A stretch of DNA of 64,000 nt from a virus (Duplodnaviria; Caudoviricetes). Under the pieces are notes generated by a model that made no database searches, had not been told where the DNA came from, and worked only from the letters and a program-made list of their open reading frames with translations. Positions 577-29,188 of the stretch are shown here, piece by piece (the first letter of the stretch is position 1; each line of letters begins with the position of its first letter). A program made the translations under genes and the position numbers. Location: IMG/VR virus record IMGVR_UViG_3300037722_000240, positions 1 through 64,000 of that record, one strand, 5' to 3'.

Positions 577-600
577 TAATTTCTCTGGAACGCCTGTTAC
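577..600 (+). promoter_or_regulatory. TAATT-N14-GTTAC motif, copy 1
   Basis: TAATT 577-581, 14-nt spacer, GTTAC 596-600; same spacing as 8 other intergenic copies. Confidence 0.6.
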
Positions 601-653
601 TCAGATTTGAACGAAGTATAAACTAATGTTTATATAGATATAATATGTACCCC

Positions 654-686
654 AAAGCTCGGCATGGTTCCGAGCTTTTTGTTTTT
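654..686 (+). terminator. intrinsic terminator
   Basis: Stem AAAGCTCGG/CCGAGCTTT, 7-nt loop, followed by TTGTTTTT. Confidence 0.65.
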
Positions 687-864
687 GTACCTGATGGTAC
701 ATATATCGTGGTACCCAAAACATGATGATAACGGGACCATTAAAGGGAGTACGTGTTGTTAGGTGCTGGTGCTTATACTGCTTTAGTATGGGAACCAAAA
801 CTTGGTATTTTTCAGTAGATGGTGCAATAATGAAAGAATCGGGCCAAGTGGTAGTTGATTAATC

Positions 865-892
865 TTGACAAGGTGGTATGATTGTATAGATT
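865..892 (+). promoter_or_regulatory. sigma70-type promoter candidate for the amidoligase operon
   Basis: TTGACA 865-870, 16-nt spacer, TAGATT 887-892; followed by hairpin GATTCAGCT/AGCTGAATC (889-918); AAGGAGGT RBS before 1000. Confidence 0.45.
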
Positions 893-999
893 CAGCTTGC
901 CTCTTCGGGAGCTGAATCTTCACTTATTAAGTAATAGACTAACGTGGATTTTTATTAATATGAAAATTTATAAAATTTATTATCCTTAAAGGAGGTAAG

Positions 1000-2508
1000 A
1001 TGAAAAGAGGGTTTGAAATTATTGATTCTGTAGGTATAGAATTAGAGTTTTCTAATATTAATAGAGAAGATACTAAATTTTTAACGGATATGAAAAAGTT
1101 TCTTCCTGGATTTCAAGTTAAGCATGATGCTTCTTGTGAAAGCAAAGTACTAACTTTTGCTGGACAAGAAGTTGAGGCTAATGCTAAGACTCTAAAACAA
1201 ATGGCACCTTATTTTCTTAATACAGTAATTGGTGGAGAAGTAGCATCCCCAGTGATTGATTCATGTTCTCCAGAATGGGTAGATAATATTTTTTCTCTTT
1301 GTGAATTACTAAGACAACACGGAGAATTGGAAGATACTGTAAGAGATAGTTTCCACGTTCATGTTAATATCTCCGAACAAGCCCCTCTATTTGTTTTGAA
1401 AAATCTTCTAAAACTTTCAGCCGCATATGAAGCAGTAATGTTTAGACTTGGAGGAATGGGTCGAAATAATAGAGGAGAAGAAAATTTCTTCTGTTATCAA
1501 AGGCCTTATCTTGGAAATGGACCTCCAGTAGTTATGATTGGTAAAGAAAATTATCCTATTCTATGTTACGAGGATTTGATGCAAAGTAAGGACAAAGAAG
1601 AGTTTTTTGGAAGATATGGGGATTCATATTATCATTTTGACCATAGAGCAAGATATGTAACACAGAGATATATGGTAACAAATTTTTACTCAATATTAAG
1701 TATGGGCTCTTTTGAATTTCGTACAGCTAATAAAACACTTAATCCTAGATATATTATTGCATGGACTAACTTTTGTAAGGCTTTTGTACAAAAAGCTTGG
1801 GTAGGTCCATCTTTGTTAGATGAAATTACTTTTGAAATGCCTCTCTATAAAGGCAATGTAATAAGTATGGATGAATTTTTGAACGCCTTGAAATTTTTAC
1901 CTTTATTAGAGCCTTCAACTATTGATATTTTATTAGAAATTTGGGAATCCAGTCCTACACCAAGATTTGATAACAAATGGAGGTATACTCATCTTAGAGA
2001 CCCAACAAAATTTTCAACTATAATGTATGCGCCACATACAATAAGTGGTAAAATAGAAAAACCAGTTTTTGAGGATATTCATAATCAAGTTCCTGAAATA
2101 AGAGTTCCTGTAGAAGAATTAGGTATAGGAATTGAATGGGATGCACCAGTTGTTAATATTAACAATGAGAATCAAAGAGAAGTTATTCAAGATAGACTTT
2201 GGAATGTATCTTTTAATGGCGGCAATCAATTTTATGATATTAGAGGTCTTATGGACTTTGCAGTTATTGATAATCATATAATGTATGGCCCTATAAGTTA
2301 TAATGATATAATTTTTTATATAGAAATGCGGCTTAGAGTTAATGATGCTGGACGAGTTTTCTTATATTCTTGGCAACATCGGGATAATATTGATGTGGAA
2401 GGTCAATTTGAAATGTTTGGTATGCATATTAATTTTCCCGATGCTTATAATAGAGTAACAGATTACATACAGGACGTTTGGCCCGAATTTTACGAGGAAA
2501 ACATGTAA
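1000..2508 (+). CDS. putative amidoligase (glutamine-synthetase/GCS-like COOH-NH2 ligase, Amidoligase_2-type)
   Basis: Motifs VGIELEF, HDASC, GGEVASPV, SFHVHVN, FEFRT; strong RBS. Confidence 0.8.
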   Translation: MKRGFEIIDSVGIELEFSNINREDTKFLTDMKKFLPGFQVKHDASCESKVLTFAGQEVEANAKTLKQMAPYFLNTVIGGEVASPVIDSCSPEWVDNIFSLCELLRQHGELEDTVRDSFHVHVNISEQAPLFVLKNLLKLSAAYEAVMFRLGGMGRNNRGEENFFCYQRPYLGNGPPVVMIGKENYPILCYEDLMQSKDKEEFFGRYGDSYYHFDHRARYVTQRYMVTNFYSILSMGSFEFRTANKTLNPRYIIAWTNFCKAFVQKAWVGPSLLDEITFEMPLYKGNVISMDEFLNALKFLPLLEPSTIDILLEIWESSPTPRFDNKWRYTHLRDPTKFSTIMYAPHTISGKIEKPVFEDIHNQVPEIRVPVEELGIGIEWDAPVVNINNENQREVIQDRLWNVSFNGGNQFYDIRGLMDFAVIDNHIMYGPISYNDIIFYIEMRLRVNDAGRVFLYSWQHRDNIDVEGQFEMFGMHINFPDAYNRVTDYIQDVWPEFYEENM

Positions 2509-15769: not shown

Positions 15770-15818
15770 TAATTTATATAGCGTCGCGGTTACTTGAAAA
15801 CACTAACTTACTTTGTTT
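15770..15818 (+). promoter_or_regulatory. TAATT-N14-GTTAC-N18-TTTGTTT motif, copy 4
   Basis: TAATT 15770, GTTAC 15789, TTTGTTT 15812; lies just after the stop at 15752. Confidence 0.65.
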
Positions 15819-15902: not shown

Positions 15903-16139
15903 ATGGTGGTACCTAAGGGGATTGTATTAGGAGAACCAAGGGGCGGTTATGGTACAGGTACTCTTTTAGTGCGAGAACCGGGTATCCGTATATTGGCCCA
16001 CCGGACACCAGGAATATTAATCCCCGGTTCAAATAAGATTTACGTTATAAAACATAGATTTATCTATACAATTGGATACTTGACCTGGTCCACATACCTG
16101 GCGTATAATCAAGCTGAGGCAGGCCCGCGTCAATTTTGA
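15903..16139 (+). CDS. possible hypothetical protein
   Basis: 78-aa ORF, weak RBS, Gly/Pro-rich. Confidence 0.35.
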   Translation: MVVPKGIVLGEPRGGYGTGTLLVREPGIRILAHRTPGILIPGSNKIYVIKHRFIYTIGYLTWSTYLAYNQAEAGPRQF

Positions 16140-16208
16140 CTGGTACGTGGGCGTGCTTTTTGTTTACAGGATGCGGTTGGTGCCGTTCAATAGCCAAGGA
16201 GAATCCAT

Positions 16209-16649
16209 ATGGCAAAGAATAGAAAGGCCCAAGCCGCAGGTACTGACGAGGCCGCTGACGCCCCAGTTAGTGCCGCTGGTTCCATCATGCAACAGATAAT
16301 TGATGGAACCGTAAGTCAACTGGTGTTTATCATCAACCCTGCACCGTTTATCCGTGAGGACTCGGTGGAAGAGGGTGAAATGCACCGTGGTAATACTCCG
16401 TGGTTGATTCACTTGCCTGCACTTGGAGTTACGGTACAGGCATTGAACCACAACGGAGAACCCAAGGTCGGATATTATGACTATCGGGAGGCGATGGACC
16501 ACGCTCGCCAGATTTGGAACCGATGTGTCGAGGACCCGTCAATTATTGAGGGTCTCCGTACCGAGTCAGCAAGTTATTGGCCTGGAACCGTTCATTCAGA
16601 CGGTAAGATTATGTTCAGGTACATCGACGTTCAGCCTCTCAATTTGTAG
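16209..16649 (+). CDS. hypothetical protein
   Basis: AAGGAG RBS, protein-like composition, GC-richer codons. Confidence 0.8.
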   Translation: MAKNRKAQAAGTDEAADAPVSAAGSIMQQIIDGTVSQLVFIINPAPFIREDSVEEGEMHRGNTPWLIHLPALGVTVQALNHNGEPKVGYYDYREAMDHARQIWNRCVEDPSIIEGLRTESASYWPGTVHSDGKIMFRYIDVQPLNL

Positions 16650-16720
16650 TCTGAACGTCTAGTATGTACCGCATCCTGTAAACTCCTCTTTCGCTTGGGT
16701 TCAGAAAAAGGAGAAATCAC

Positions 16721-16906
16721 ATGAACCCCAATTTAGAATACCGAACCAGATTTATGATTCAAGGCGATTACTACGAAGAATTACCCAGGAGGCGGTCCCA
16801 ATTCAAGGTAATTGGTTCACATCAAACCGATGTGCCTATTGAAAAGAAAGCGGAATGTACCGATAATCCGCATCGAGACGATAGACCACAAACTCGGTTC
16901 AAATAA
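16721..16906 (+). CDS. small hypothetical protein
   Basis: AAAGGAG RBS. Confidence 0.55.
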   Translation: MNPNLEYRTRFMIQGDYYEELPRRRSQFKVIGSHQTDVPIEKKAECTDNPHRDDRPQTRFK

Positions 16907-16921
16907 AGGAAAAGTGTACCA

Positions 16922-17425
16922 ATGGCAAAGAAAGCTACAAATGGTAAAGTAACTGCACCAATTCTTCCTCAGCCGCGTACAATATCACAATCGCCGCTGT
17001 ATACCCTTGTACCAACAATTAGGGACCAGTTTCGGCGAGTTGAACTTCGAGATGCGAATGGTGCGGTCAAGGCTATCTTGATTGACCAGGACCAGAAGAA
17101 GGAACAAAATGTTGGTGAAGCGAATCTGAACTTCCTTTGTGGTTTAATTCTAGGCGCTACTGGCGGTCGAGGGGACAAACCCGATGGTGCATGTATTTGG
17201 GTTGCTGGTAACGCTACCCAAATGAAGAATTTGAACGATTACATTCTGTACATGGAACCACGAACGCGTGGAACCATTTTGGAAGCGCCGGTATCGAGGT
17301 TTCTGAGTATCGTTTCGGCCCGTGCCGCCGTCTTGGGACCATCATTGGAGAAGTACCCTCCAACGGTTAAGGTGCGTGATGTAAGTATTGGTGCGGAAGA
17401 AGAGGAGGTCGAAGTCGTTTTATAA
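16922..17425 (+). CDS. hypothetical protein
   Basis: AAAGGA RBS; acidic C-terminus. Confidence 0.8.
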   Translation: MAKKATNGKVTAPILPQPRTISQSPLYTLVPTIRDQFRRVELRDANGAVKAILIDQDQKKEQNVGEANLNFLCGLILGATGGRGDKPDGACIWVAGNATQMKNLNDYILYMEPRTRGTILEAPVSRFLSIVSARAAVLGPSLEKYPPTVKVRDVSIGAEEEEVEVVL

Positions 17426-17450
17426 GCTGTAGCACCCTCACCACAATAAG

Positions 17451-17655
17451 TGAGCGGTACGGAGGTCAACATGACTCTGTACCGCTCATTAGTGGGTTAA
17501 GGAGAGGTTATAAAGATGGTTCGGAAATCAATCGAACATTAGGAGGGCACCTATTGCCCGTCTTTATAACCTATCCTATCTACATTGTACCATAGGAGCT
17601 AATCCCCACACCGGGTAGGATACCCATATTAGTTTAGCCAGGTTACAATGTAGAT
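17451..17655 (+). ncRNA. candidate structured RNA domains upstream of the tRNA
   Basis: Three consecutive long stems: 17451-17488 (17 bp, one bulge), 17505-17572 (13-15 bp closing two inner hairpins), 17578-17655 (12 bp perfect, branched interior). Confidence 0.5.
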
Positions 17656-17658
17656 TCT

Positions 17659-17731
17659 GGGCCCATAGCTCAGGGGTTAGAGCAGCCGGCTCATAACCGG
17701 TAGGTCGTAGGTTCAATTCCTACTGGGCCCA
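17659..17731 (+). tRNA. tRNA with CAU anticodon, most likely tRNA-Ile2 (lysidine type); elongator Met not excluded; CCA not encoded
   Basis: Acceptor GGGCCCA/TGGGCCC, D-arm AGCTCAG-GGGTT-AGAGC, anticodon loop CTCATAA (CAT 17692-17694), T-arm GTAGG-TTCAATT-CCTAC, discriminator A; lacks the initiator C1-A72 mismatch. Confidence 0.92.
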
Positions 17732-17734
17732 CTA

Positions 17735-17989
17735 CACCAGTATTACACCGTGGAACAACCATTTATAATGGTAACCGGTAAGATACTGGTGGATATAGAC
17801 GCTCTGCCAAGCGGATTGACTGAGTACCACTCCGTCGGCACCAAGATAGCAACACCATAGACAGTAAGTGTACCACTTATGTTGCCTTGGTAGCCTACCC
17901 CAACATATGGGTAGCATTACCGGGTGTTATAGGAAGTAGAATAGAGGGTATATAGAGTACCAAGGTGCTTTGGCAGAGCGCCTTTTTTT
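17735..17989 (+). ncRNA. candidate structured RNA downstream of the tRNA, ending in a U-tract
   Basis: CACCAGTAT/ATACTGGTG (17735-17791); CGCTCTGCCAA 17800-17810 pairs with TTGGCAGAGCG 17970-17980 around nested stems; T7 at 17983-17989. Confidence 0.55.
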
Positions 17990-18014
17990 ATTAATCTTTA
18001 TGGTTCAGATGTCC

Positions 18015-18038
18015 TAATTTCTACAGACAACCCGTTAC
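18015..18038 (+). promoter_or_regulatory. TAATT-N14-GTTAC motif, copy 5
   Basis: TAATT 18015, GTTAC 18034; just after the U-tract. Confidence 0.6.
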
Positions 18039-18394
18039 CGGTGGTGCGAACCAGGGTTTAGGGGTTCGCTGATATCAACTTACGATACTGGTGCAGATAT
18101 CGCTTTAGTGTGGGAACCGGCTGTTTGGGACGGTGGTACCTAGGGCGTATACCAAGTTGTACCATATTTGTGGTGCGCGTACTAGTGAGATACTGGTTCC
18201 CATACTCTTCCATTTTAAAGGCGTCACGCTCAGACGAGCGTATAGTACAGGAACCGGAAAATCTGGTAGTATACCTGGTAGTTTCGATATGATTGGTTAT
18301 TGAAATACAACGTACCATATAGTATACTAAGATGATGGAAAGTGTGGGGTCTGTGTACCACAAAAACCGGTTCGATTACCAGGAGGATGGTGCA

Positions 18395-18907
18395 ATGCGT
18401 AAGAAACGAATAGCCATACGCGAAACTGGTACAGAGTTTGAAACTGGGGTCGTTTTTAGTCCAAGCTGGGACGACTTCAAAGCAGTGTTAGGCAGACTTT
18501 GGGAATTGGGCATGGAACCAGAAATCATGCCATATAACACATCAATCCAAGAAACATTGAGAAACCGGTCTATAGCCAACAAAGTGGTTCCTGATATGTT
18601 GGCTAAGGCAGAGTACCGAAAACTTCACGAAAATGCACCTTTTGTGGTACAAGCTGGTCTATGGGTTATTGCATGTTACAATTACAAATGGTGCAGAGGC
18701 CCTTATCCTGGCACCATAAAGAAATATAGGGCACCAAAGCGGAAGCCTGTAATGGAGTTTCGGTGCCCTTACTGTGGTAACATATGGACACCGAACCCCC
18801 GGTTCAAGAATAGAAAGGTGATACTATCACAATTTGCTTCTTGGATTGCGAACCACAAATCGTGCAATTCCGTTACTCACATTGAGTTAGCACCAGGAGT
18901 AGTATAA
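18395..18907 (+). CDS. hypothetical protein with Zn-finger (track start 18332; RBS favours 18395)
   Basis: AGGAGG before ATG 18395; CPYCG...H..C motif. Confidence 0.75.
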   Translation: MRKKRIAIRETGTEFETGVVFSPSWDDFKAVLGRLWELGMEPEIMPYNTSIQETLRNRSIANKVVPDMLAKAEYRKLHENAPFVVQAGLWVIACYNYKWCRGPYPGTIKKYRAPKRKPVMEFRCPYCGNIWTPNPRFKNRKVILSQFASWIANHKSCNSVTHIELAPGVV

Positions 18908-19389
18908 TGAATATCTTCTATTTGGACCAGGAACTAGACAAGATAGCTGAGTACCACGCCGATAGGCATGTAATCAAAATGCCGGTAGAAAGTGCACAAA
19001 TGTGTAGCACCGTAGCAAGAGAACGGTGCGGGATTGATGTTGGTTATAAATCAGTGTTTATCAACCATCCTTGTACCAGATGGACGGCGGCAAGCCGAGA
19101 AAACTGGTCCTGGAACCTATCTCTTGCAACATGGTTGTGTGCTGAGTATACGCACCGCTGGGGCAATATACATGCCACAACTGACGTTATTGTGGAACTT
19201 ACTGAGCACAAGAACCAGATTTTGAAACATCTACCAGATGTTCCTTTCACTGAACCACCAAAAGTGGTTTCTGCTGAATTCAAGCACTTGCCAACAGTGG
19301 ACGCGTACCGGCAATACTATATTGTAGTGAAACAACGACTTCACAAGTGGACCAATCGACCTATACCAGAGTGGATTCCAAATGAATGA
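18907..19389 (+). CDS. pyrimidine-dimer DNA glycosylase / endonuclease V-like phage protein
   Basis: MNIFYLD...AEYHADRHVIKMPVESAQMCST, NHPCTRW, AYRQYY, KWTNRPIPEW. Confidence 0.75.
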   Translation: MNIFYLDQELDKIAEYHADRHVIKMPVESAQMCSTVARERCGIDVGYKSVFINHPCTRWTAASRENWSWNLSLATWLCAEYTHRWGNIHATTDVIVELTEHKNQILKHLPDVPFTEPPKVVSAEFKHLPTVDAYRQYYIVVKQRLHKWTNRPIPEWIPNE

Positions 19390-19474
19390 CGATACGGTCC
19401 GTAAGTTAGTTTGGTGGTTAACGTCTCAACCTTGGTGGCCTGAGATATGGGAATATCTAAGGAGGAACCAATGA
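19382..19474 (+). CDS. possible 30-aa Trp-rich peptide (not in ORF track)
   Basis: MNDDTVRKLVWWLTSQPWWPEIWEYLRRNQ; overlaps both neighbours as in coupled genes. Confidence 0.4.
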   Translation: MNDDTVRKLVWWLTSQPWWPEIWEYLRRNQ

Positions 19475-19680
19475 GTCTGATTGAAGACCCAGAACAACAC
19501 GACTGTACCGGCGAAGTCCTAGAGATACCGGAGGATTATTATGATTACAAAGATAATGATGGACCGTACCGAGAGGACGATATTCGAGAATGGAGTTCCG
19601 GTAGCGAATCTGTCCGAAGAGGTAGTGATGACGTGTCCAGAGTGTTTGGCACCAGCGGTACGGGTCATCACCCTGCATGA
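19471..19680 (+). CDS. acidic hypothetical protein (RBS favours start 19471)
   Basis: AAGGAGG RBS; overlaps the next ORF. Confidence 0.45.
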   Translation: MSLIEDPEQHDCTGEVLEIPEDYYDYKDNDGPYREDDIREWSSGSESVRRGSDDVSRVFGTSGTGHHPA

Positions 19681-20005
19681 TAAGATATACTACGGCCATT
19701 CTGGTACAGGGGGTGATTTCGGCCATATGTGCGAAGCTGACCCGATAGATGCACCAGACGCTATTACCATTCTGGAATACGGAGAACCGCGGTACCTAGG
19801 ATGGGAGCACCACGAGTATGAATCCGAACCAGAACCAGGAAAGCCAGAAGAATATCCTGATTGGGTTCAAGATTTTCTGGATAGTATAGATAGTGATGAC
19901 CCATTCGATGACCCAGATTATCGGGACCAGTTAAACAATCCTGATAATTGGATTTCTGGTTTAGATGATGAAGATGGTCCCATTAGCCCAATAGGGAATA
20001 TATGA
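19541..20005 (+). CDS. hypothetical Zn-binding acidic protein (start uncertain)
   Basis: CPEC...H..C motif, Asp/Glu-rich tail. Confidence 0.65.
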   Translation: MITKIMMDRTERTIFENGVPVANLSEEVVMTCPECLAPAVRVITLHDKIYYGHSGTGGDFGHMCEADPIDAPDAITILEYGEPRYLGWEHHEYESEPEPGKPEEYPDWVQDFLDSIDSDDPFDDPDYRDQLNNPDNWISGLDDEDGPISPIGNI

Positions 20006-20196
20006 TGTGTGGTGCGTGTGACACCAAAGCATCTATTCGAGCCCGAAAATGGGTACAGGAAACCCGTGAACGAGTTATGAACCAGGAGGCCGCCAATGCT
20101 TTACTACGTTTGTGTCCGCACCAAGAGTTCAATAAGAAAGTGTTTGGTTCAAGCACCAAACGGGTTTGTCGCTGTGATGTATGTAATCTTGCATGA
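20002..20196 (+). CDS. Cys-rich hypothetical protein
   Basis: CGAC...CPH...CRCDVC; ATGA overlap. Confidence 0.7.
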   Translation: MMCGACDTKASIRARKWVQETRERVMNQEAANALLRLCPHQEFNKKVFGSSTKRVCRCDVCNLA

Positions 20197-20362
20197 CATA
20201 CAACATCCACTACGAACCGAGATTAGAAACGTGGAGGTTGAACCATTCTATGTGTACCAAGACCGTTATGTAGATGGTTATTACTCAGGTTTCTATATGT
20301 ACACTGTACCAAAAGATTTCGAGTATAATCCGGGAGGTACAAACCGCATACAAGAAAACTGA
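20096..20362 (+). CDS. hypothetical protein (true start probably internal, MYVILH...)
   Basis: Tyr-rich protein-like C-terminal part fills the gap before the repeated leader. Confidence 0.5.
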   Translation: MLYYVCVRTKSSIRKCLVQAPNGFVAVMYVILHDIQHPLRTEIRNVEVEPFYVYQDRYVDGYYSGFYMYTVPKDFEYNPGGTNRIQEN

Positions 20363-20399
20363 ACCCGAACCAATTAATTTCTATCAGGAGGAAAACAAA

Positions 20400-20510
20400 A
20401 TGAACCAGTACCCGTATCTAACAAGGATGATTAAGTTGTCATGCTTGCTGTGGAAAATTCGGTACGTTATGCGAACCATAGTGAACCAGAACCAGGAGGA
20501 AACAAAATGA
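20400..20510 (+). CDS. 36-aa hypothetical peptide
   Basis: AGGAGG RBS, ATG 20400. Confidence 0.5.
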   Translation: MNQYPYLTRMIKLSCLLWKIRYVMRTIVNQNQEETK

Positions 20511-20737
20511 CACTATATACAGTACTTGTAATGATTGACTATGGTAACGGCAATATCCTAAAGAAACTGTTTTTGGTACAAGAATTAAATCCAAAAGATG
20601 CTGTGAATAAGGTATTAGCGTTACCAATGTCTAACAGTACAGCTCTTACATTAACAATAGAGTGCCGGACCACGTTTTCTGATATTAAGAAGCCGGTATT
20701 TCTTGGACATATGGCTTCAGTTCCTGTGAGAGAATAA
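20507..20737 (+). CDS. hypothetical protein (RBS favours start 20507)
   Basis: AGGAGG RBS; last + strand gene before the terminator. Confidence 0.7.
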   Translation: MTLYTVLVMIDYGNGNILKKLFLVQELNPKDAVNKVLALPMSNSTALTLTIECRTTFSDIKKPVFLGHMASVPVRE

Positions 20738-20753
20738 CCGAACCCGAACCACC

Positions 20754-20777
20754 TAATTTCCACCGGGAGCCAGTTAC
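20754..20777 (+). promoter_or_regulatory. TAATT-N14-GTTAC motif, copy 6 (overlaps terminator stem)
   Basis: TAATT 20754, GTTAC 20773. Confidence 0.55.
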
Positions 20778-20801
20778 CTCCAGTAGCTGGTTCCCTTTTT
20801 T
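20765..20801 (+). terminator. intrinsic terminator ending the left-arm transcript
   Basis: 13-bp stem GGGAGCCAGTTAC/GTAGCTGGTTCCC, 5-nt loop, T6. Confidence 0.85.
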
Positions 20802-20893
20802 ATTTGAAATCATGGTTCAAAACGAGGCTAAAGATAAATCGTACTCAGATATTGGTATTATATGCTATAGTAGTATGTATAGTATAGAGTATA

Positions 20894-20975
20894 GGGTACA
20901 AGGAGTATGTTTACTGGGTCAATCAACGTTTTAGGGGTACAATGAACATATTTATTGGGACAATCAACCTTTTCT
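20894..20975. repeat. degenerate 41-bp tandem duplication
   Basis: GGGTACAA...TTTA.TGGG.CAATCAAC.TTTT at 20894 and 20935. Confidence 0.65.
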
Positions 20976-21077
20976 TGGTATGTACTGACAAACATACACT
21001 TTGTACCATATAGTTGCACAATTCTATCGGAATATGCGTAAATGTACCATTATTGACAAATGGCTACCAGGTTGTGC

Positions 21078-21563
21078 ATATCATGGTACCTAAGACCAGC
21101 AACCCTAATTGCTTATACCTTTCCTGTTACCGTAACCAGTGGTACCTATACTATATAGCATAAAGGGATTATTGAACCATGGGTCCATTTTTAGTCGCCC
21201 ATGAACATATGTTCTACCGGGTTATTGGTACATATATTCTAATTGCTAATTTGAACCGTGTTACTGGTACACTGGTACCCATATATATACTATACATATC
21301 GTGGTACCGGGGAGCCTAATCGGGGCGAACTGGTATCGTGGTACCAATGCTGATGGTAGTGGTGCAGATTTTGTGAAAGTACACTAACCAGGAAAATGGT
21401 ACCAAATATCCACATTTTCTAATTGGCTTAACGGTACCGTTACCGGGGTATCATGGTACCACACTTTCTAATTGCCAATGTGGTACCGTTACTTTGATAT
21501 CGTGGTACCAGATATTCTAATTGCCTCATTGGTACCGTTACTGAGATATCATGGTACCGGAAA
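21078..21563 (+). repeat. GGTACC-rich degenerate array with three clear 49-bp tandem units
   Basis: Units start 21417, 21466, 21515 (TTCTAATTG..GGTACCGTTAC..RTATCRTGGTACC); degenerate units upstream; 12 GGTACC between 21085 and 21558. Confidence 0.85.
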
Positions 21564-21727
21564 CAGCGAAAATTTTTTAGAACCAATGTTCTGGTTCCTG
21601 GGCGCGATTCTTCTTGGCGGATATTAGAACAGGGGTTCTAAACGCGGATCGAAATTAGCACGTTCGTTCTATAAGGGATTGGAGTCAACCTCACAACGTT
21701 GCCGAGTCAATTTAGAACGGAAGTTCT
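21203..21727. promoter_or_regulatory. cluster of GAAC-N4-GTTC operator-like palindromes (LexA/SOS-box consensus)
   Basis: GAAC-ATAT-GTTC 21203; AGAAC-CAAT-GTTCT 21579; AGAAC-AGGG-GTTCT 21626; AGAAC-GGAA-GTTCT 21714; one-mismatch AGCAC-GTTC-GTTCT 21657. Confidence 0.6.
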
Positions 21728-22379
21728 ACAGGAAATCAACCTCAGCGAGTCGCGCTTGTCCGCGTCCGCCAGCAGTCGGCCATTGCAAAATGGCCTCCGC
21801 GTTTGAGACAAAGGCCGCGAGAATTCCCAAGAAAGCGGCCGCGGGATATTCGACAGACTCGCCGTTGGCGCCAGTTAGAGTCAGACTCTGGATTGTGTAT
21901 CCTGACTCTTGTATGGCGTTATTCAGCAGCAAACCTTTGAGGGTTGACTCTGCTGAGCGACGAGTCGGGCTTGGCAGTTGGCCGCTTGCAATGCTGAGAG
22001 CGAAGTAGCTCAGCACTTGAAACGCCTCAGCGACCGCGTTTGATTCGGAAACTTGACGCGTCGCGTATGCGTGACGAATTGCTGGAGCATTGCGCCTTAA
22101 CTCGCGGCCGTTCGCGTCGCGTGCGGGTTGCCAAGCCTCCAGCACAACCTCGCGACTTTCCTTGCCAACACTCCAGACAACCCTACCGCTGACCGTCCGA
22201 TTACCGAAGGTCTGAGTTGTCGCATTGGTCATTGGAGCCTTGCTGTTGTCGTTCGGCTCACGCCTCCGACTGAAGTCGCGAATGACAGACTCGAAACTTG
22301 CCAGAATGTTAAAGCATACCGCAACAAGTGCGACATTGGCCTTAACGCTGGCGTTAACCTTTACTTGTTTCTTTGCCAT
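21726..22379 (-). CDS. GC-rich hypothetical protein (217 aa)
   Basis: AAGGA RBS, Ala-rich protein-like composition, flanked by an 18-bp inverted repeat. Confidence 0.75.
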   Translation of the reverse strand: MAKKQVKVNASVKANVALVAVCFNILASFESVIRDFSRRREPNDNSKAPMTNATTQTFGNRTVSGRVVWSVGKESREVVLEAWQPARDANGRELRRNAPAIRHAYATRQVSESNAVAEAFQVLSYFALSIASGQLPSPTRRSAESTLKGLLLNNAIQESGYTIQSLTLTGANGESVEYPAAAFLGILAAFVSNAEAILQWPTAGGRGQARLAEVDFL

Positions 22380-22450
22380 CGTAACAGATTCCTTAATGTT
22401 GACGTTGTGAGGTTGACTCCTAGGAGTCTACAATCTCGCGAGATTGTAGA

Positions 22451-22660
22451 CTAACTCTTCACTAGCAAAACAAGAATTTGATACTGGACTTTGTCTAGCA
22501 TAGCTCGATACCGTCTAGCTTCGTTCGATTCGAATTGTGCTAGGCCTCGAGTCGCGTAGTGCATCGCGTAACGATTCGCAGACGATTGATGACTCTCGAT
22601 AAGATTCAACAAGCGGCCGCGACGTGCCTTAAGTTCGTCAAGCTCCACACTCTTTAACAT
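22451..22660 (-). CDS. hypothetical protein (69 aa)
   Basis: AAGGAG RBS upstream; helical basic protein. Confidence 0.65.
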   Translation of the reverse strand: MLKSVELDELKARRGRLLNLIESHQSSANRYAMHYATRGLAQFESNEARRYRAMLDKVQYQILVLLVKS

Positions 22661-23069
22661 TGGTAACTCCTTAAGGTTGTGGATTGTAGACTCTTAGGAG
22701 TCAACCTCTTCGCGTGCACGCGTCCACGCGTACACAGTTCGATTGTCTGAGGGATAAACTCTCGCCGCCTATTCGAGTCCTTTGCAGAATCTCGCGGAGG
22801 GCATATTGGAGTCTATCATGTTAACGTGCTACCACTAGTCTATCACACATTCTATATGAATAGGGTCACGGTAATCTTAAAATATTCAAACTCGATACCA
22901 GACCTCCGGCATTGATTGCTTTAAGGTTAGACTTGACCCAATGTTAAAGGAATGGAACCCCGCCCAATTACTGAAAAAAATGTCACTGGTTCTGGGCCAG
23001 ATGGCGGCTGTGTACCCCAATGACAATGAAGGACCTTTTATTATCGGTATCGGATTGTGCCAATAAATG

Positions 23070-25220: not shown

Positions 25221-27122
25221 TTACATCCTCAATGTTTTTCTTATTTCTGATGTTATTCTTTGTACAGTTTGTAAAACTGGTGTAATTCTAGCTGTATATT
25301 GTATACCAGCATTATAACGTAATGTTGCTCTTATTTCATTAACTTTTGCTATAGAAATTGTCTTTATTCCGCTTATAACATCTGATATAGTAACATCATC
25401 TGAAAGTAGAATAGCAATTATAGCAGGTACAATGCCATTTGCTGTATCTGTTATTCCAACTGCGTCAGTAATTGTCAAAAAAAGATGTCTAGTTATTGAT
25501 ACGATATCAGATATAGATATACTATCCACTAGAGTTATAATATGCTGTACTGTTCTTGAAATAACATCTGATATAATTACTGTATTCTGAATTATTCTTC
25601 TATAATCAATAGCTCTAGATAAGGTATCTGTAATTGCAACACTATCAGAAATTAATACAGATAATGCTGTCTTTAAATAGTCTAGAACATCTGTAATTCC
25701 CACCGCATCAGCAATTAATATAATTAACTGTCTAATTGACAATACAGTATCAGAAACAGATATATTATCTACTAATGCTACTACATAGTTTATAGCTCTG
25801 AAAATAGCATCAGAAAGAGTTACTGTATCTTGAATAGACCTTCTATATTCTACTGCTCTTGAAAAAACGTCTGTTATATCTACACCATTAGAAATTAATA
25901 TAGCCACTGCTTTTATATAGCTCAGACTGTCTGTAATACCTACTGCATCCGCAATAGCAATAAAAACTACTTTGCTTGCAATTATAATATCTGTTATACC
26001 TACCCCATTTTGTAAAGTTCTAAATATCCCCCTAGCAGTAGTCAAATTATCTGTTATCCCTAAAACATTTTGAATTGTTTTGGCAAGTGTTCTAGATTCA
26101 GCTAGACTGTCAGTTATACCTATAGCATTGACTATATTCACAACTACAGACTTGAAAAAGTCTAAGGTATCAGTAATTCCTATATTATCAGATATGTTTA
26201 TAAGAAGCTGTTTAGCAGATGTTAAAATATCAGTTATTGTTAAAGAATCTTCGACTATTCTATTATACGAGACATTTCTAGATAAAATATCTGTAATTCC
26301 CACCGTATTTACTATTAGTATTGATTTTCCTAGTATAATATTTATAATATCAGTAATTCCTATAGATTCTGATATTAAAATATTTCTTCCTACAGAGGTA
26401 GAAAGTATATCGGTTATATCCAAAGAATCAGTTATAGTAGCAAAAAAGTTATCGCCGCCGCCAGCTACCGCCGCGATTCCGATTGCAACACCTATAACAT
26501 CGTCGGTACTGGCCGATGAAAGGTTGCTCCAGCCTGTTGTACTGTCAGCACTGGCGAGGTCATGTTGAACTTGAAGTGCCCACTCATTACCGCCAGCCAC
26601 AAGCTGAACTTCATCGTCCTCGGTGAAATTGGCGTCAGGCGTGATACCCGTATTGCTGGCTCCGTCCAAGACACCGGCCAGCACAGTTGTATCGGTAGCA
26701 GGGGTTGCGTGGGTTAGCGTAAGCGTTGAAACAAATCCGCCCGTGGAATCAAAGAAGAAGTCAAAGTCTACGGGAGTACCTCCATCGTAGTTTGTGACTT
26801 CGTATACTGCGATCCACTTGAGACGACTGTTCACGGCAAATGTTGCAGTGACGGCCCCGGAGCCGGGGGTTGCTCCGAGGACCGCCCTGCCAGCGGCTAA
26901 TACAGCACCTTTGCCGCCCTGAGACCCAACGCGAGAATCGGTTGTCCAAGAGCCGGAACCAGTAAAGGAGTCCACAATGGACGACAAATCAACCAAGTTG
27001 GCATTAGCTGCTGCCGTTATCACGACAAGAAGAGCATCAGCCGCTGGACTGATTGTACCAGAACTTATGTTGTTAGTATTTGCAGAATCAGTGACAAGGG
27101 TGAGCAAGGTTATGGATGGCAC
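25221..27122 (-). CDS. tail fibre-like protein with 18 x ~20-aa repeats
   Basis: Repeats ending (I/V)(G/T/S)I(T/S)D every ~20 aa after a GGG linker; GC-rich N-terminal domain. Confidence 0.7.
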   Translation of the reverse strand: MPSITLLTLVTDSANTNNISSGTISPAADALLVVITAAANANLVDLSSIVDSFTGSGSWTTDSRVGSQGGKGAVLAAGRAVLGATPGSGAVTATFAVNSRLKWIAVYEVTNYDGGTPVDFDFFFDSTGGFVSTLTLTHATPATDTTVLAGVLDGASNTGITPDANFTEDDEVQLVAGGNEWALQVQHDLASADSTTGWSNLSSASTDDVIGVAIGIAAVAGGGDNFFATITDSLDITDILSTSVGRNILISESIGITDIINIILGKSILIVNTVGITDILSRNVSYNRIVEDSLTITDILTSAKQLLINISDNIGITDTLDFFKSVVVNIVNAIGITDSLAESRTLAKTIQNVLGITDNLTTARGIFRTLQNGVGITDIIIASKVVFIAIADAVGITDSLSYIKAVAILISNGVDITDVFSRAVEYRRSIQDTVTLSDAIFRAINYVVALVDNISVSDTVLSIRQLIILIADAVGITDVLDYLKTALSVLISDSVAITDTLSRAIDYRRIIQNTVIISDVISRTVQHIITLVDSISISDIVSITRHLFLTITDAVGITDTANGIVPAIIAILLSDDVTISDVISGIKTISIAKVNEIRATLRYNAGIQYTARITPVLQTVQRITSEIRKTLRM

Positions 27123-27131
27123 TGGAAAATC

Positions 27132-27821
27132 TTACTCCACGCTCAACTGAAAGCCACCAAACAGGAAGGCGTCATCCGGGTCTACCATATGACCATGAAT
27201 CTCAAGTCGGTAAGCCGTGTATGCCTCTTCAACCGGAATGACGTACTGAAAAACGGCCGGAGGGCCGACGAAACTACACTTGCCCGTACCGAACGGGCTC
27301 TCTACTCCGGGGCGGTGGAACACCATTATCCATGGCTCATCCCAATCGACCTGTCCATAGACCGTAACCTCAGCCACGCCTTCATGCATATGGTGAGCCT
27401 CTATCATGCGAAGAACAATCGTACTGTGGCTTCCAGATACGGCCACGTCTTGCCATAGCCAGTCCTCGCCACCGATGGGCCAATCATCAAGACCGGCTAT
27501 ATCACGGTCCATCTGGGCATAACTTGTGCCGGTTGGTTCACAGACCAGTGGCCGATGGACCGTCCAGTGCCCATTCACGAACTGCCAGCCATCGAAACCC
27601 TCCTCGAAGTCTCCATTGATGAGCAGGTTTTCACCGGATGGTGGCGGAACGGTCGGCGTTGGGTCTGTACCCCCTGGCGTTGGAACTAGCGGCGTATTAC
27701 TAGCCGTTGGACGCACGCGGGGTGTTGCTGTGGGCGTTTCAGTCCGTTGAGGCATGGCCCCACTACAGGCAACCAACAGCCCCAAAAGAAGTACCAACAG
27801 AATGTATTTCAAGTAATTCAT
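27132..27821 (-). CDS. lipoprotein with Pro/Thr linker and CBM-like beta-sandwich (track start 27857; RBS favours 27821)
   Basis: Lipobox LLVA-C, PT-rich linker, NLLINGDFEEG typical of CBM4/9-like domains. Confidence 0.7.
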   Translation of the reverse strand: MNYLKYILLVLLLGLLVACSGAMPQRTETPTATPRVRPTASNTPLVPTPGGTDPTPTVPPPSGENLLINGDFEEGFDGWQFVNGHWTVHRPLVCEPTGTSYAQMDRDIAGLDDWPIGGEDWLWQDVAVSGSHSTIVLRMIEAHHMHEGVAEVTVYGQVDWDEPWIMVFHRPGVESPFGTGKCSFVGPPAVFQYVIPVEEAYTAYRLEIHGHMVDPDDAFLFGGFQLSVE

Positions 27822-27835
27822 TTCGGCATATCCTC

Positions 27836-29188
27836 CTAGTTGCTTGGGCCAATCCATCCGGATGGCACGGCACCGGCGTCAAGCTCATTACATACCTGTC
27901 CGCCACAGAAATAGATATCCCGTTCCGGCGTGTTCGGCGGGTCGAAGGCGTTGCCCAGGATGCTTGTACCAAAGGCTTTTCCATAGCGACCAGTGAATGC
28001 CGACACTAGCTTGATTGGGTGGCAGTCCGGCCCCGGTGCCGTACAAGATTGGTTCAAGTCACCGAAGCGCGTAACGAAGCCCTCCGCCGTGATGCGTCCT
28101 ACTCGTGGGTCCATATCGAATCCTTCCAAGTTATCCCATGCCACCGGTATTTCACCCACAATTTCATGGACCGTGGTTGTCGAGTTGTTGTATTTGCACC
28201 CCGGAACCGGCGAGAACGTCAGACCCCCATCTTCCGAGCACAGCCAGCGGAAGGTGAATGGGTAGGTCAGGTCGCCGGAGTCAAGCACCTGATAGATGTC
28301 ACGCGCTCTGAATAGCAGGGCGAACAGCTCGCTACCGCTGTCGATGTTCACCGGCTCGCTGATCCATGTCGTGTTGGCTCTTCGCTGACCGGCGACAAAG
28401 GATGCGTAGGTCGGATAACGGTCGCACTTCGGCTCTGGGCCGAAGCAGTCCACGGTGAAGTACGGCTCACGCGGTGAGGCATATGCCGGTAGCGGGGTGT
28501 CCGGATATTGAAGGACGGTTCCCTGGTAGGGACTGGTGCGCTGGCCGTAGTCCTGAAGCTGGTTGGCGAAGATGTAGCCATAGTCAGTGGGGTCGTCTGT
28601 TCTGCATTGACGTAGCAGTCCTACCGCACTGTGCAGTCTAGCCTCGAACTCGATGCTGTAGTCCCCGAAGCCATGATACTGGATAACAGCGGCGTCCACG
28701 CCGGTTGGGACTCCCTCCCGTCCGGTACAGCCGGTCGCGCTGGTTAGGTTGACATCCCACTTAAGTCCGCCGTGCTTGTGGGTGTTCTCTAGCGGGCTTG
28801 ATGGGTTTGTATGACCTACACTCACGCCACCAATTAGTGCCCTCAGGTCGAAACCTGGGAAGGCTTCGGCTACCTCGTCTGTAAACGGATATGTACCATG
28901 TTCATGGTCATAGCGGCAGCCTTGTGCACTGTCCCAGACTGTGTGGAACACGTTGTAGTCGTGGTCTGCAATAGCGTTAGCACACAGCGGGGCATCGGGG
29001 AATGGCTCGATTGGATCGCCCGGCTCGTCTGTTGGTGTGACACCCGGCGTATCAGTTGGAAAAGGAGTGATAGGTAAGTCCGTAGCCGTTGGTGGCGCTA
29101 CGGTTGCAGTTGGCGGTGGTGTCGGCACAGGCGCACAGGCGCTCAATAATAGTATAGCCAATACAGAACTAACTATAAATTGTTTCAT
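27836..29188 (-). CDS. lipoprotein with Pro/Thr linker, Cys-rich extracellular domain
   Basis: Lipobox LLSA-C, PT-rich linker, DHEHG and HKHGG motifs; GGAG RBS. Confidence 0.8.
   Translation of the reverse strand: MKQFIVSSVLAILLLSACAPVPTPPPTATVAPPTATDLPITPFPTDTPGVTPTDEPGDPIEPFPDAPLCANAIADHDYNVFHTVWDSAQGCRYDHEHGTYPFTDEVAEAFPGFDLRALIGGVSVGHTNPSSPLENTHKHGGLKWDVNLTSATGCTGREGVPTGVDAAVIQYHGFGDYSIEFEARLHSAVGLLRQCRTDDPTDYGYIFANQLQDYGQRTSPYQGTVLQYPDTPLPAYASPREPYFTVDCFGPEPKCDRYPTYASFVAGQRRANTTWISEPVNIDSGSELFALLFRARDIYQVLDSGDLTYPFTFRWLCSEDGGLTFSPVPGCKYNNSTTTVHEIVGEIPVAWDNLEGFDMDPRVGRITAEGFVTRFGDLNQSCTAPGPDCHPIKLVSAFTGRYGKAFGTSILGNAFDPPNTPERDIYFCGGQVCNELDAGAVPSGWIGPSN

What the first reader, a model, noticed from the sequence alone, without database searches (positions are those of the whole stretch)
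17451..17655. Three back-to-back RNA stem domains immediately 5' of the tRNA
D1 (17451-17488) is a 17-bp stem with one bulge. D2 (17505-17572) has AGGTTATAAAGAT/GTCTTTATAACCT closing TTCG/CGAA and GGGCA/TGCCC hairpins. D3 (17578-17655) has a perfect ATCTACATTGTA/TACAATGTAGAT stem closing GCTAAT/ATTAGT and GGGTA/TACCC. D2 and D3 are tRNA-sized (68-78 nt), branched, and D3 lies only 3 nt from the tRNA, as in a processed tRNA-like array. G-U pairs favour the + strand as the RNA. Candidates are tRNA mimics or decoys (e.g. against anticodon nucleases) or part of a larger unknown ncRNA.
Basis: partly seen in the sequence, partly recalled or inferred. Interest (0 to 1): 0.72.

Follow-up and report, generated by a model that had tools for sequence, protein, structure and literature searches.

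The report
Stem-loop leader before a phage tRNA
Three very stable RNA stem-loop domains do sit just upstream of a phage tRNA gene, but they look like terminator-derived spacer and processing hairpins of an mRNA-tRNA transcript rather than tRNA mimics, so the finding is real but fairly ordinary.

Summary
D1, D2 and D3 fold as described. Windows covering them have the strongest folding z-scores among the first 24 kb scanned, and each domain beats its shuffles. They lie in a 906-nt gene-free gap of an uncultivated phage (IMG/VR record, 77.7 kb), co-oriented with the flanking genes, the tRNA(CAT) and the only canonical terminator (17962-17989).

The tRNA-mimic reading is not supported. Neither Rfam nor ARAGORN sees anything tRNA-like, and no known RNA family matches.

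The one informative relative is L060, whose flanking proteins are 60-70% identical.
- It has a D1 orthologue (3 compensatory pairs, none broken) that carries a U-tract. The window's D1 has lost that U-tract.
- It has a plain hairpin orthologous to D2's basal stem (5 compensatory pairs).
- It has no D2 interior, D3, tRNA or D4.

Another relative (L054) has a related tRNA(CAT) at the same position with a short, simple leader. Covariance models of D2 and D3 find no other copy anywhere.

Best reading: D1-D3 are non-terminating intercistronic stem-loops between the last ORF and a co-transcribed tRNA. They probably define processing sites and protect RNA ends.

No expression data could be obtained. 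This scan has not noted the element on other DNA.

The parts
15770..15793 (+). Nearest upstream copy of the phage-specific promoter-like motif TAATT-N14-GTTAC, and the likely start of the transcription unit that runs into the tRNA
   Evidence: 11 copies in the window against 1.5 expected, all on the + strand. There is none between 15793 and 18015.
16922..17425 (+). Last protein-coding gene of the unit (167 aa, no known family). It is the synteny anchor used to find relatives.
17450..17489 (+). D1: an 18-bp hairpin orthologous to the terminator hairpin of relative L060, but without a U-tract here (tail AUUAGUGGG against UUUUUGGGG in L060)
   Evidence: Of 14 aligned pairs, 10 are the same, 1 changed on one side, 3 changed on both sides and 0 are broken.
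17490..17499 (+). Linker that lies within the conserved word GGGTTAAGG (17494-17502), also present after D1' in L060
17500..17577 (+). D2: a three-way junction. Basal stem 17500-17517/17560-17577; P2 17519-17537; P3 17545-17559. The basal stem is orthologous to hairpin hpX of L060. The 42-nt interior is specific to this phage.
   Evidence: Of 16 aligned columns, 8 are the same, 5 changed on both sides and 3 are broken. Model R1 finds no other copy.
17578..17655 (+). D3: an extended irregular hairpin. Lower stem 17578-17591/17641-17655; middle helix 17596-17603/17628-17635; apical hairpin 17613-17625. No homologue was found.
   Evidence: Model R2 finds no other copy.
17656..17658 (+). 3-nt spacer (TCT) between D3 and tRNA position +1. 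RNase P cleavage after it is expected but inferred.
17659..17732 (+). tRNA with anticodon CAT. It is not an initiator (G1-C72). It has C4-G69 and C5-G68, so it is probably tRNA-Ile2. No CCA is encoded.
17735..17791 (+). D4: a 57-nt hairpin starting 2 nt after the tRNA, absent from relatives
   Evidence: (z = -4.5)
17797..17989 (+). Multibranched domain closed by an 11-bp stem (17800-17810/17970-17980) and T7 (17983-17989). It is the only canonical intrinsic terminator of the gap. L060 has a counterpart.
   Evidence: In the closing stem, 7 of 10 pairs changed on both sides, and the first inner hairpin is conserved.
18015..18038 (+). Next promoter-like motif TAATT-N14-GTTAC, the likely start of the following unit

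Best explanation
D1-D3 are the structured spacer between the last ORF (16922-17425) and a tRNA(CAT) that is transcribed on the same RNA. The unit probably starts at the promoter-like motif at 15770 and ends at the stem plus U7 at 17962-17989.

- D1 is the former intrinsic terminator of the ORF cluster. It has lost its U-tract, so polymerase reads through to the tRNA.
- D2 is a conserved post-terminator hairpin whose loop has grown two extra hairpins in this lineage.
- D3, and D4 on the other side, bracket the tRNA within 2-3 nt.
- RNase P cutting at tRNA +1 would leave the upstream mRNA ending in D3 plus UCU. That is a 3' end protected from 3'-5' exonucleases by D3, D2 and D1.
- The long, near-perfect helices (12-18 bp) are also plausible RNase III-type entry sites that separate mRNA from tRNA.

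Shown: the structures, their strand, absence of coding, orthology and covariation of D1 and of the D2 basal stem, loss of the U-tract, and absence of tRNA-likeness.

Inferred: co-transcription, the cleavages and the protective role.
For: - Exceptional folding of the region and of each domain.
- No gene was called in the gap in independent assemblies.
- D1 is orthologous to L060's hairpin plus U5, with 3 two-sided compensatory pairs, 1 one-sided change and 0 broken. The window's tail is AUUAGUGGG, not a U-tract, and the terminator scan does not call D1.
- The D2 basal stem aligns with L060's hpX: 5 two-sided compensatory pairs, 8 identical, 3 broken.
- The hairpin after the gene has a U-tract in L060, L047 and L055. 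It lacks one where a co-oriented tRNA or ORF follows closely (L054, L051, L057, L063), and also in the window, where the tRNA starts about 170 nt on.
- There is no promoter-like motif between 15793 and 18015 and no sigma-70-like site in 17426-17658.
- The only hairpin followed by a strong T-run is at 17962-17989. The scan also lists two weak terminator-like sites, inside D2 and D3.
- A related tRNA(CAT) sits at the same position in L054, with the same acceptor stem apart from pair 7-66.
- G-U pairs occur only in the + strand reading.
Against: - There are no expression data.
- Only one relative is informative, and I made the D2/hpX alignment by hand.
- D3 and the D2 interior have no homologue, so there is no evidence of selection on them. 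D3 alone is only moderately unusual (z = -3.7), and its reverse strand folds better (-28.8 against -24.8 kcal/mol).
- L054 expresses a related tRNA behind a short, simple leader, so the elaborate domains are not needed for tRNA expression.
- A test for hairpins just upstream of the phage's other tRNAs gave only a weak trend.
Confidence: 0.5

Rival explanations
1. Neutral debris. The gap is a recombination junction inside a mosaic GC-rich module. D1-D3 would be decaying or duplicated terminator hairpins with no present function.
For: - The region lies in a 7-kb island of 45-49% GC inside a roughly 30-35% GC genome.
- The content of the gap differs in every relative.
- D1 looks like a terminator that lost its U-tract. 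D2's P3 plus the following GUCUUUAUAA is called terminator-like and shares a 12-nt word with the terminator hairpin of L051 (E = 1.5).
Against: - The stems are perfect or nearly so over 12-18 bp, which decay would erode.
- D1 and the D2 basal stem keep pairing through 8 two-sided changes.
- D3 and D4 abut the tRNA within 2-3 nt.
Confidence: 0.22
2. One large ornate phage ncRNA of about 560 nt (17426-17989) with the tRNA embedded in a linker. This would be analogous to GOLLD RNA, where phage tRNAs sit in the linker. D1-D3 would form its 5' domain and D4 plus the multibranched domain its 3' domain.
For: - GOLLD and ROOL are phage RNAs near tRNA islands. One GOLLD lies downstream of a Met-tRNA, and tRNAs occur in the GOLLD linker (bioRxiv 10.1101/2024.12.08.627333).
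- D1, the D2 basal stem and the multibranched domain all recur in L060 with compensatory changes.
- The whole stretch is non-coding and very stable.
Against: - There is no GOLLD, ROOL or other Rfam match at E<=10.
- The domains fold independently, with no predicted long-range helices.
- L060 lacks D3, the tRNA, D4 and the D2 interior, and D1' there has its own U-tract, which would cut the RNA in two.
Confidence: 0.12
3. DNA-level palindromes, such as binding sites for a phage protein, cruciforms or an origin or packaging signal.
For: - The inverted repeats are detectable as DNA, and both strands fold almost equally well.
Against: - G-U pairs in all three domains would be mismatches in DNA.
- The arms change by compensatory substitution rather than staying fixed as a protein site would.
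- Each stem has a different sequence, so no common recognition word exists.
- The D1 orthologue carries a U-tract on the + strand.
Confidence: 0.08
4. One reading: D2 and D3 are tRNA mimics or decoys released from a tRNA-like array, for example against anticodon nucleases.
For: - Sizes of 68-78 nt, branched D2, and D3 ending 3 nt before a genuine tRNA.
- Twelve to thirteen base pairs in the closing stems equals the length of a coaxial acceptor/T-arm helix. This is my own observation, not a test.
Against: - There is no tRNA or tRNA-like match in Rfam at E<=10 or ARAGORN down to 80% thresholds.
- There is no four-way junction, T-loop, D-loop, anticodon-type loop or 3' CCA-like tail.
- D2's stem is orthologous to a simple hairpin.
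- There is no second copy in this or related phages.
Confidence: 0.03

Closest known systems
Intrinsic (Rho-independent) terminators and non-terminating intercistronic hairpins that stabilise mRNA 3' ends
   Same: D1 occupies the position of the hairpin-plus-U-tract terminator found after the same gene in relatives L060 and L047. It is a GC-rich 18-bp hairpin. D2's P3 hairpin followed by GUCUUUAUAA is also terminator-like.
   Different: D1 has no U-tract here. D2 and D3 are branched or extended 78-nt domains rather than simple hairpins. Three of them are stacked back to back and followed by a tRNA.
Phage T7 early-region RNase III processing signals (my own knowledge, not tested here)
   Same: Both are irregular hairpins of about two helical turns with internal loops, lying between cistrons of a polycistronic phage transcript. 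In T7, cleavage leaves a 3' hairpin that stabilises the upstream RNA. D3 (14 bp, an internal loop, then 8 bp) and D1 (18 bp) have that general shape.
   Different: There is no sequence similarity and no evidence of cleavage. The host and its RNase III are unknown. Here the downstream partner is a tRNA.
Stable RNAs 'species 1 and 2' (rnaC, rnaD) of the phage T4 tRNA gene cluster (my own knowledge, not tested here)
   Same: These are small structured non-tRNA RNAs encoded next to phage tRNAs, co-transcribed with them and released by tRNA-processing enzymes. Their function is unknown.
   Different: The T4 RNAs are conserved among T4-like phages and are known to accumulate. D2 and D3 are so far unique to one phage, and their accumulation is unknown.
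GOLLD and ROOL large ornate phage RNAs
   Same: They are phage-encoded, highly structured and non-coding, and they lie next to tRNAs. GOLLD can carry a tRNA in its linker and has been found downstream of a Met-tRNA.
   Different: There is no covariance-model match. The region here is smaller (about 560 nt), is built from independently folding hairpin domains, and shows no predicted pseudoknots or long-range helices. It is conserved only in pieces in one relative.

Membership tests
tRNA / tRNA-like RNA (Rfam clan CL00001; ARAGORN) | Cloverleaf scored by the covariance model or ARAGORN | tested here: not met
   (E<=10): only 17659-17731 matches; nothing in D1-D3 at default or 80% thresholds, and the 60% calls do not coincide with D2 or D3.
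tRNA / tRNA-like RNA (Rfam clan CL00001; ARAGORN) | T-loop, D-loop and a 7-nt anticodon-type loop (pyrimidine-U-NNN-purine-N) | tested here: not met
   Read from the sequence. The D2 loops are AAAUCAA and CCUAU, and the D3 apical loop is GGA. None fits.
Intrinsic terminator | GC-rich hairpin | tested here: met
   D1 folds at -27.3 kcal/mol.
Intrinsic terminator | U-tract directly after the hairpin | tested here: not met
   The window's D1 tail is AUUAGUGGG and is not called by the scan. The orthologue in L060 has UUUUU.
GOLLD / ROOL RNA (Rfam) | Match to the family covariance model | tested here: not met
   no hit at the gathering score or at E<=10.
T-box leader, riboswitches, Y RNA, 6S, self-cleaving ribozymes (all Rfam 15 families) | Match to any family covariance model | tested here: not met
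   the only other rows are chance-level (mir-460 at E = 0.23 on D3, L10 leader at E = 1.4, FopS at E = 2.6).
RNase III processing signal | About 20 bp of (interrupted) double helix | tested here: met
   D1 has 18 bp, D2's basal stem 17 bp, and D3 14 + 8 bp.
RNase III processing signal | Cleavage by RNase III | not testable with these tools
   This needs an in vitro assay or RNA-end mapping.
Repeated mobile element (MITE-like) | Several copies in the genome or in relatives | tested here: not met
   Models R1 and R2 find only the source copy in G000, G001-G004 and 24 loci.

The most novel reading that the evidence does not exclude
The whole 17426-17989 stretch is one new class of ornate phage RNA that carries a tRNA in its middle, as GOLLD does. 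D1-D3 would be a 5' domain that acts together with the conserved 3' multibranched domain, for example to scaffold, sequester or deliver the tRNA-Ile2-like tRNA during infection.
Probability: 0.1. Interest if true: 0.7.

Novelty: new member of a known kind. Interest (0 to 1): 0.33.

Why it matters
If the best reading holds, this is a clean natural example of two things. A phage converts a terminator into a read-through hairpin to express a newly placed tRNA. Hairpin loops also grow into branched domains. That is useful for annotating phage tRNA loci but not surprising. It would matter more only if the domains prove to be stable, independently acting RNAs or parts of a large tRNA-carrying RNA. 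That needs expression data and more relatives.

Tried and rejected
- Known RNA family: Rfam at gathering thresholds on the whole window and at E<=10 on 17300-18400 reports nothing but the tRNA.
- tRNA-likeness: ARAGORN at relaxed thresholds gives nothing meaningful.
- Homologues by DNA: blastn against 50,697 phage records matches only the tRNA. Exact-word scans of IMG/VR for the D3/tRNA junction and for the L054 tRNA gave 0 hits. The scan for the window's tRNA found two unrelated tRNA arrays. A motif from the 3' multibranched domain gave 119 chance hits, none a relative.
- Homologues by synteny: the flanking proteins were searched in IMG/VR, JGI metagenomes, GTDB genomes and the 5.8-billion-protein set.
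  - Seven independent contigs of the same phage are 100% identical across the part of the gap each spans, so they give no variation.
  - Only L053/L060 and L054 are informative.
  - More distant relatives, and the terminase relative G001, have a plain hairpin or terminator here.
- Second copies: models R1 and R2 found none. The one weak R1 hit (E = 0.16) is a plain 14-bp palindromic intergenic hairpin at G000 64108-64136.
- Mini-ORFs: three U(U/A)AGGAG words (about 17498, 17538, 17592) and two tiny frames (8 aa starting at the ATG at 17516; 13 aa starting at the TTG at 17554) are visible. I rejected them because L060 has no start codon at the matching place.
- attP or integration site: no integrase or recombinase is recognisable nearby.
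- General rule that hairpins abut this phage's tRNAs: weak. Five of ten leading tRNAs would have one, counting D3 (too long for the scan) with the four the scan found, but individual empirical p is only 0.05-0.13.

Full report
**Context**

The window is the first 64 kb of a 77.7-kb IMG/VR phage record (G000; linear, 87% complete). The finding lies in a 906-nt gap (17426-18331) between two + strand genes of unknown family. Independent gene calls on other assemblies of the same phage also leave this gap empty. ARAGORN and Rfam place a tRNA with anticodon CAT at 17659-17732.

**Observation**

This holds both in the 296-nt fold (-125.8 kcal/mol, z = -8.3) and when each is folded alone:

| Domain | z-score |
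|---|---|
| D1 | -6.6 |
| D2 | -4.9 |
| D3 | -3.7 |
| D4 (hairpin just after the tRNA) | -4.5 |

- D2's basal stem is longer than stated: 17500-17577, 17 pairs with one mismatch.
- In a 200-nt sliding z-score scan of the first 24.5 kb, the two windows over D1-D3 rank first and second of 244.
- The reverse strand folds nearly as well, as any helix-rich region does.
- The helices hold 5-6 G-U pairs and no A-C pairs in the + reading.
- Every neighbouring feature is on the + strand: genes, tRNA and the hairpin plus T7 at 17962-17989.

**What it is not**

- Rfam 15 gives only the tRNA at gathering thresholds. At E<=10 on 17300-18400 it adds only chance-level rows. So there is no tRNA-like element, T-box, riboswitch, ribozyme, Y RNA, GOLLD or ROOL.
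- ARAGORN at 80% of its thresholds finds nothing in D1-D3. At 60% its calls do not coincide with the domains.
- Covariance models built from D2 (R1) and D3 (R2) find no second copy in the whole phage record, in five related phage records or in 24 related loci. These are therefore not repeated or mobile elements.

**Relatives**

- Seven independent contigs that carry the identical upstream protein are 100% identical to the window across the part of the gap each spans, so they give no variation.
- The terminase-level relative G001 (complete, 96 kb) has the downstream gene but no tRNA or stem domains before it.
- The informative relatives came from homologues of the flanking proteins.

L060 (with its shorter twin L053; flanking proteins 60% and 70% identical) has a 730-nt gap. 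It holds, in order:
1. a small hairpin;
2. a D1 orthologue followed by UUUUU;
3. the shared word GGGTTAAGG;
4. a simple hairpin (hpX);
5. a multibranched domain of about 165 nt closed by a 15-bp stem and U7.

It has no tRNA, no D3 and no D4.

Pair-by-pair tallies (D1 also by RNAalifold):

| Helix | Aligned | Same | One-sided change | Two-sided change | Broken |
|---|---|---|---|---|---|
| D1 vs D1' | 14 pairs | 10 | 1 | 3 | 0 |
| D2 basal stem vs hpX | 16 columns | 8 | 0 | 5 | 3 |

- The D2 tally rests on my own alignment and on only two sequences.
- The 3' multibranched domains also correspond. The closing stem has 7 of 10 pairs changed on both sides, and the first inner hairpin is conserved.

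L054 (upstream protein 58% identical) has a small hairpin without a U-tract after the same gene. About 70 nt after the stop codon comes a tRNA(CAT) with the same acceptor stem apart from pair 7-66, and then a hairpin plus U9.

More distant relatives have one plain hairpin after the gene.

**Reading**

- D1 sits where relatives have the gene cluster's terminator. It is held as a helix by compensatory change, but in this phage the U-tract is gone (AUUAGUGGG).
- The hairpin carries a U-tract in L060, L047 and L055. It lacks one where a co-oriented tRNA or ORF follows closely (L054, L051, L057, L063).
- The phage's own promoter-like motif TAATT-N14-GTTAC (11 copies against 1.5 expected) occurs at 15770 and 18015 and nowhere between. 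No sigma-70-like site lies in 17426-17658.
- The simplest model is therefore one transcript: ORFs, D1, D2, D3, tRNA, D4, multibranched domain, terminator.
- D2 is a conserved hairpin whose loop expanded by 42 nt.
- D3 and D4 are lineage-specific and clamp the tRNA within 2-3 nt.
- RNase P cleavage at +1 would leave the upstream RNA ending in three consecutive stable domains. That is a classic protection against 3' exonucleases. The 12-18-bp helices are also plausible RNase III sites.
- All steps after 'one transcript' are inference. No expression data could be obtained.

**Rivals**

1. Functionless debris of terminators at a mosaic junction. The locus lies in a 45-49% GC island within a roughly 30-35% GC genome, and gap content differs in every relative. 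The perfect stems and the compensatory changes argue against pure decay.
2. A single large ornate RNA with an embedded tRNA, by analogy with GOLLD. GOLLD is phage-borne, lies near tRNA islands and sometimes has a tRNA in its linker. Against this, there is no model match, there are no long-range helices, and D1' in L060 has its own U-tract.
3. DNA-level palindromes. G-U pairs and covariation argue against this.
4. tRNA mimics. This was tested and not met.

**Verdict**

The structures are real and unusually strong. They are best explained as ordinary kinds of element: read-through terminator relics and processing or stability stem-loops in an mRNA-tRNA co-transcript. They are present in a lineage-specific, elaborated form. 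Interest is modest unless expression data show discrete stable products or a single large RNA.

Noticed in passing
window 16000-23000: GC content jumps from about 0.30 to 0.45-0.49 and falls back afterwards. A second rise to 0.54-0.58 occurs at 27000-29000. The left junction is real, because an independent 13-kb contig (L040) spans it. The island's genes have their relatives in higher-GC metagenome contigs, one of them labelled a Chloroflexi MAG. It looks like a horizontally acquired module.
   Followed up: partly
window 17659-17732: The tRNA(CAT) has G1-C72 (so it is not an initiator) plus C4-G69 and C5-G68. By my recollection these are TilS identity pairs of tRNA-Ile2. ATA makes up 31.6 per 1000 codons and 39% of Ile codons in the phage's large genes, so an AUA-reading tRNA would be useful. 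No CCA is encoded.
   Followed up: partly
window 17797-17989 and L060 2897-3066: The multibranched domain closed by a long stem plus U7 recurs in L060. Its closing stem is almost fully covarying, and the first inner hairpin is conserved (GACUGA...GUACCACUC). A sigma-70-like promoter (ATTACA-16-TATAAT, 17742-17769) lies inside D4 and could drive this domain separately. In L063 the same position holds a 13-bp stem with a 32-nt loop plus U6. Terminator loops in this phage group appear to expand.
   Followed up: partly
window 590-1000: A 400-nt non-coding leader lies between the promoter-like motif at 577 and the amidoligase operon (which starts at 1000). It is strongly structured (z = -4.4; the 601-800 window scored z = -5.2 in the scan) and holds two terminator-like hairpins. 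It may be an attenuator or leader RNA.
   Followed up: no
G000 64108-64136 (L028 4109-4137): A perfect 14-bp palindromic hairpin, AGGAGGGGGGTAC/ATGTACCCCCCCTCCT, lies between two genes with no U-tract. It has the same AGGAG...GTAC style as the D2 basal stem and L060's hpX. GGAG/CUCC-armed, GTAC-containing intercistronic hairpins seem to be a habit of this phage group.
   Followed up: no
G000 72830-77675 (L028 12831-17676): There is an array of 12 tRNAs plus a tmRNA, interspersed with small ORF-like gaps. Rfam at E<=1 finds no RNase P RNA in 60000-77677, where another first-stage note (e1-5873617) proposed one with a gene nested in P3.
   Followed up: partly
window 577-21541: The motif TAATT-N13-16-GTTAC occurs 11 times, all on the + strand, against 1.5 expected. 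Copies sit directly after terminators and before gene clusters, which fits a phage-specific promoter.
   Followed up: partly
L039 4498-4971 (G001), L047 4560-4940, window 18040-18330: The non-coding stretch upstream of the ORF18332 homologue is rich in GGTAC/GGTACC words in every relative examined. It may be an array of regulator-binding sites.
   Followed up: no
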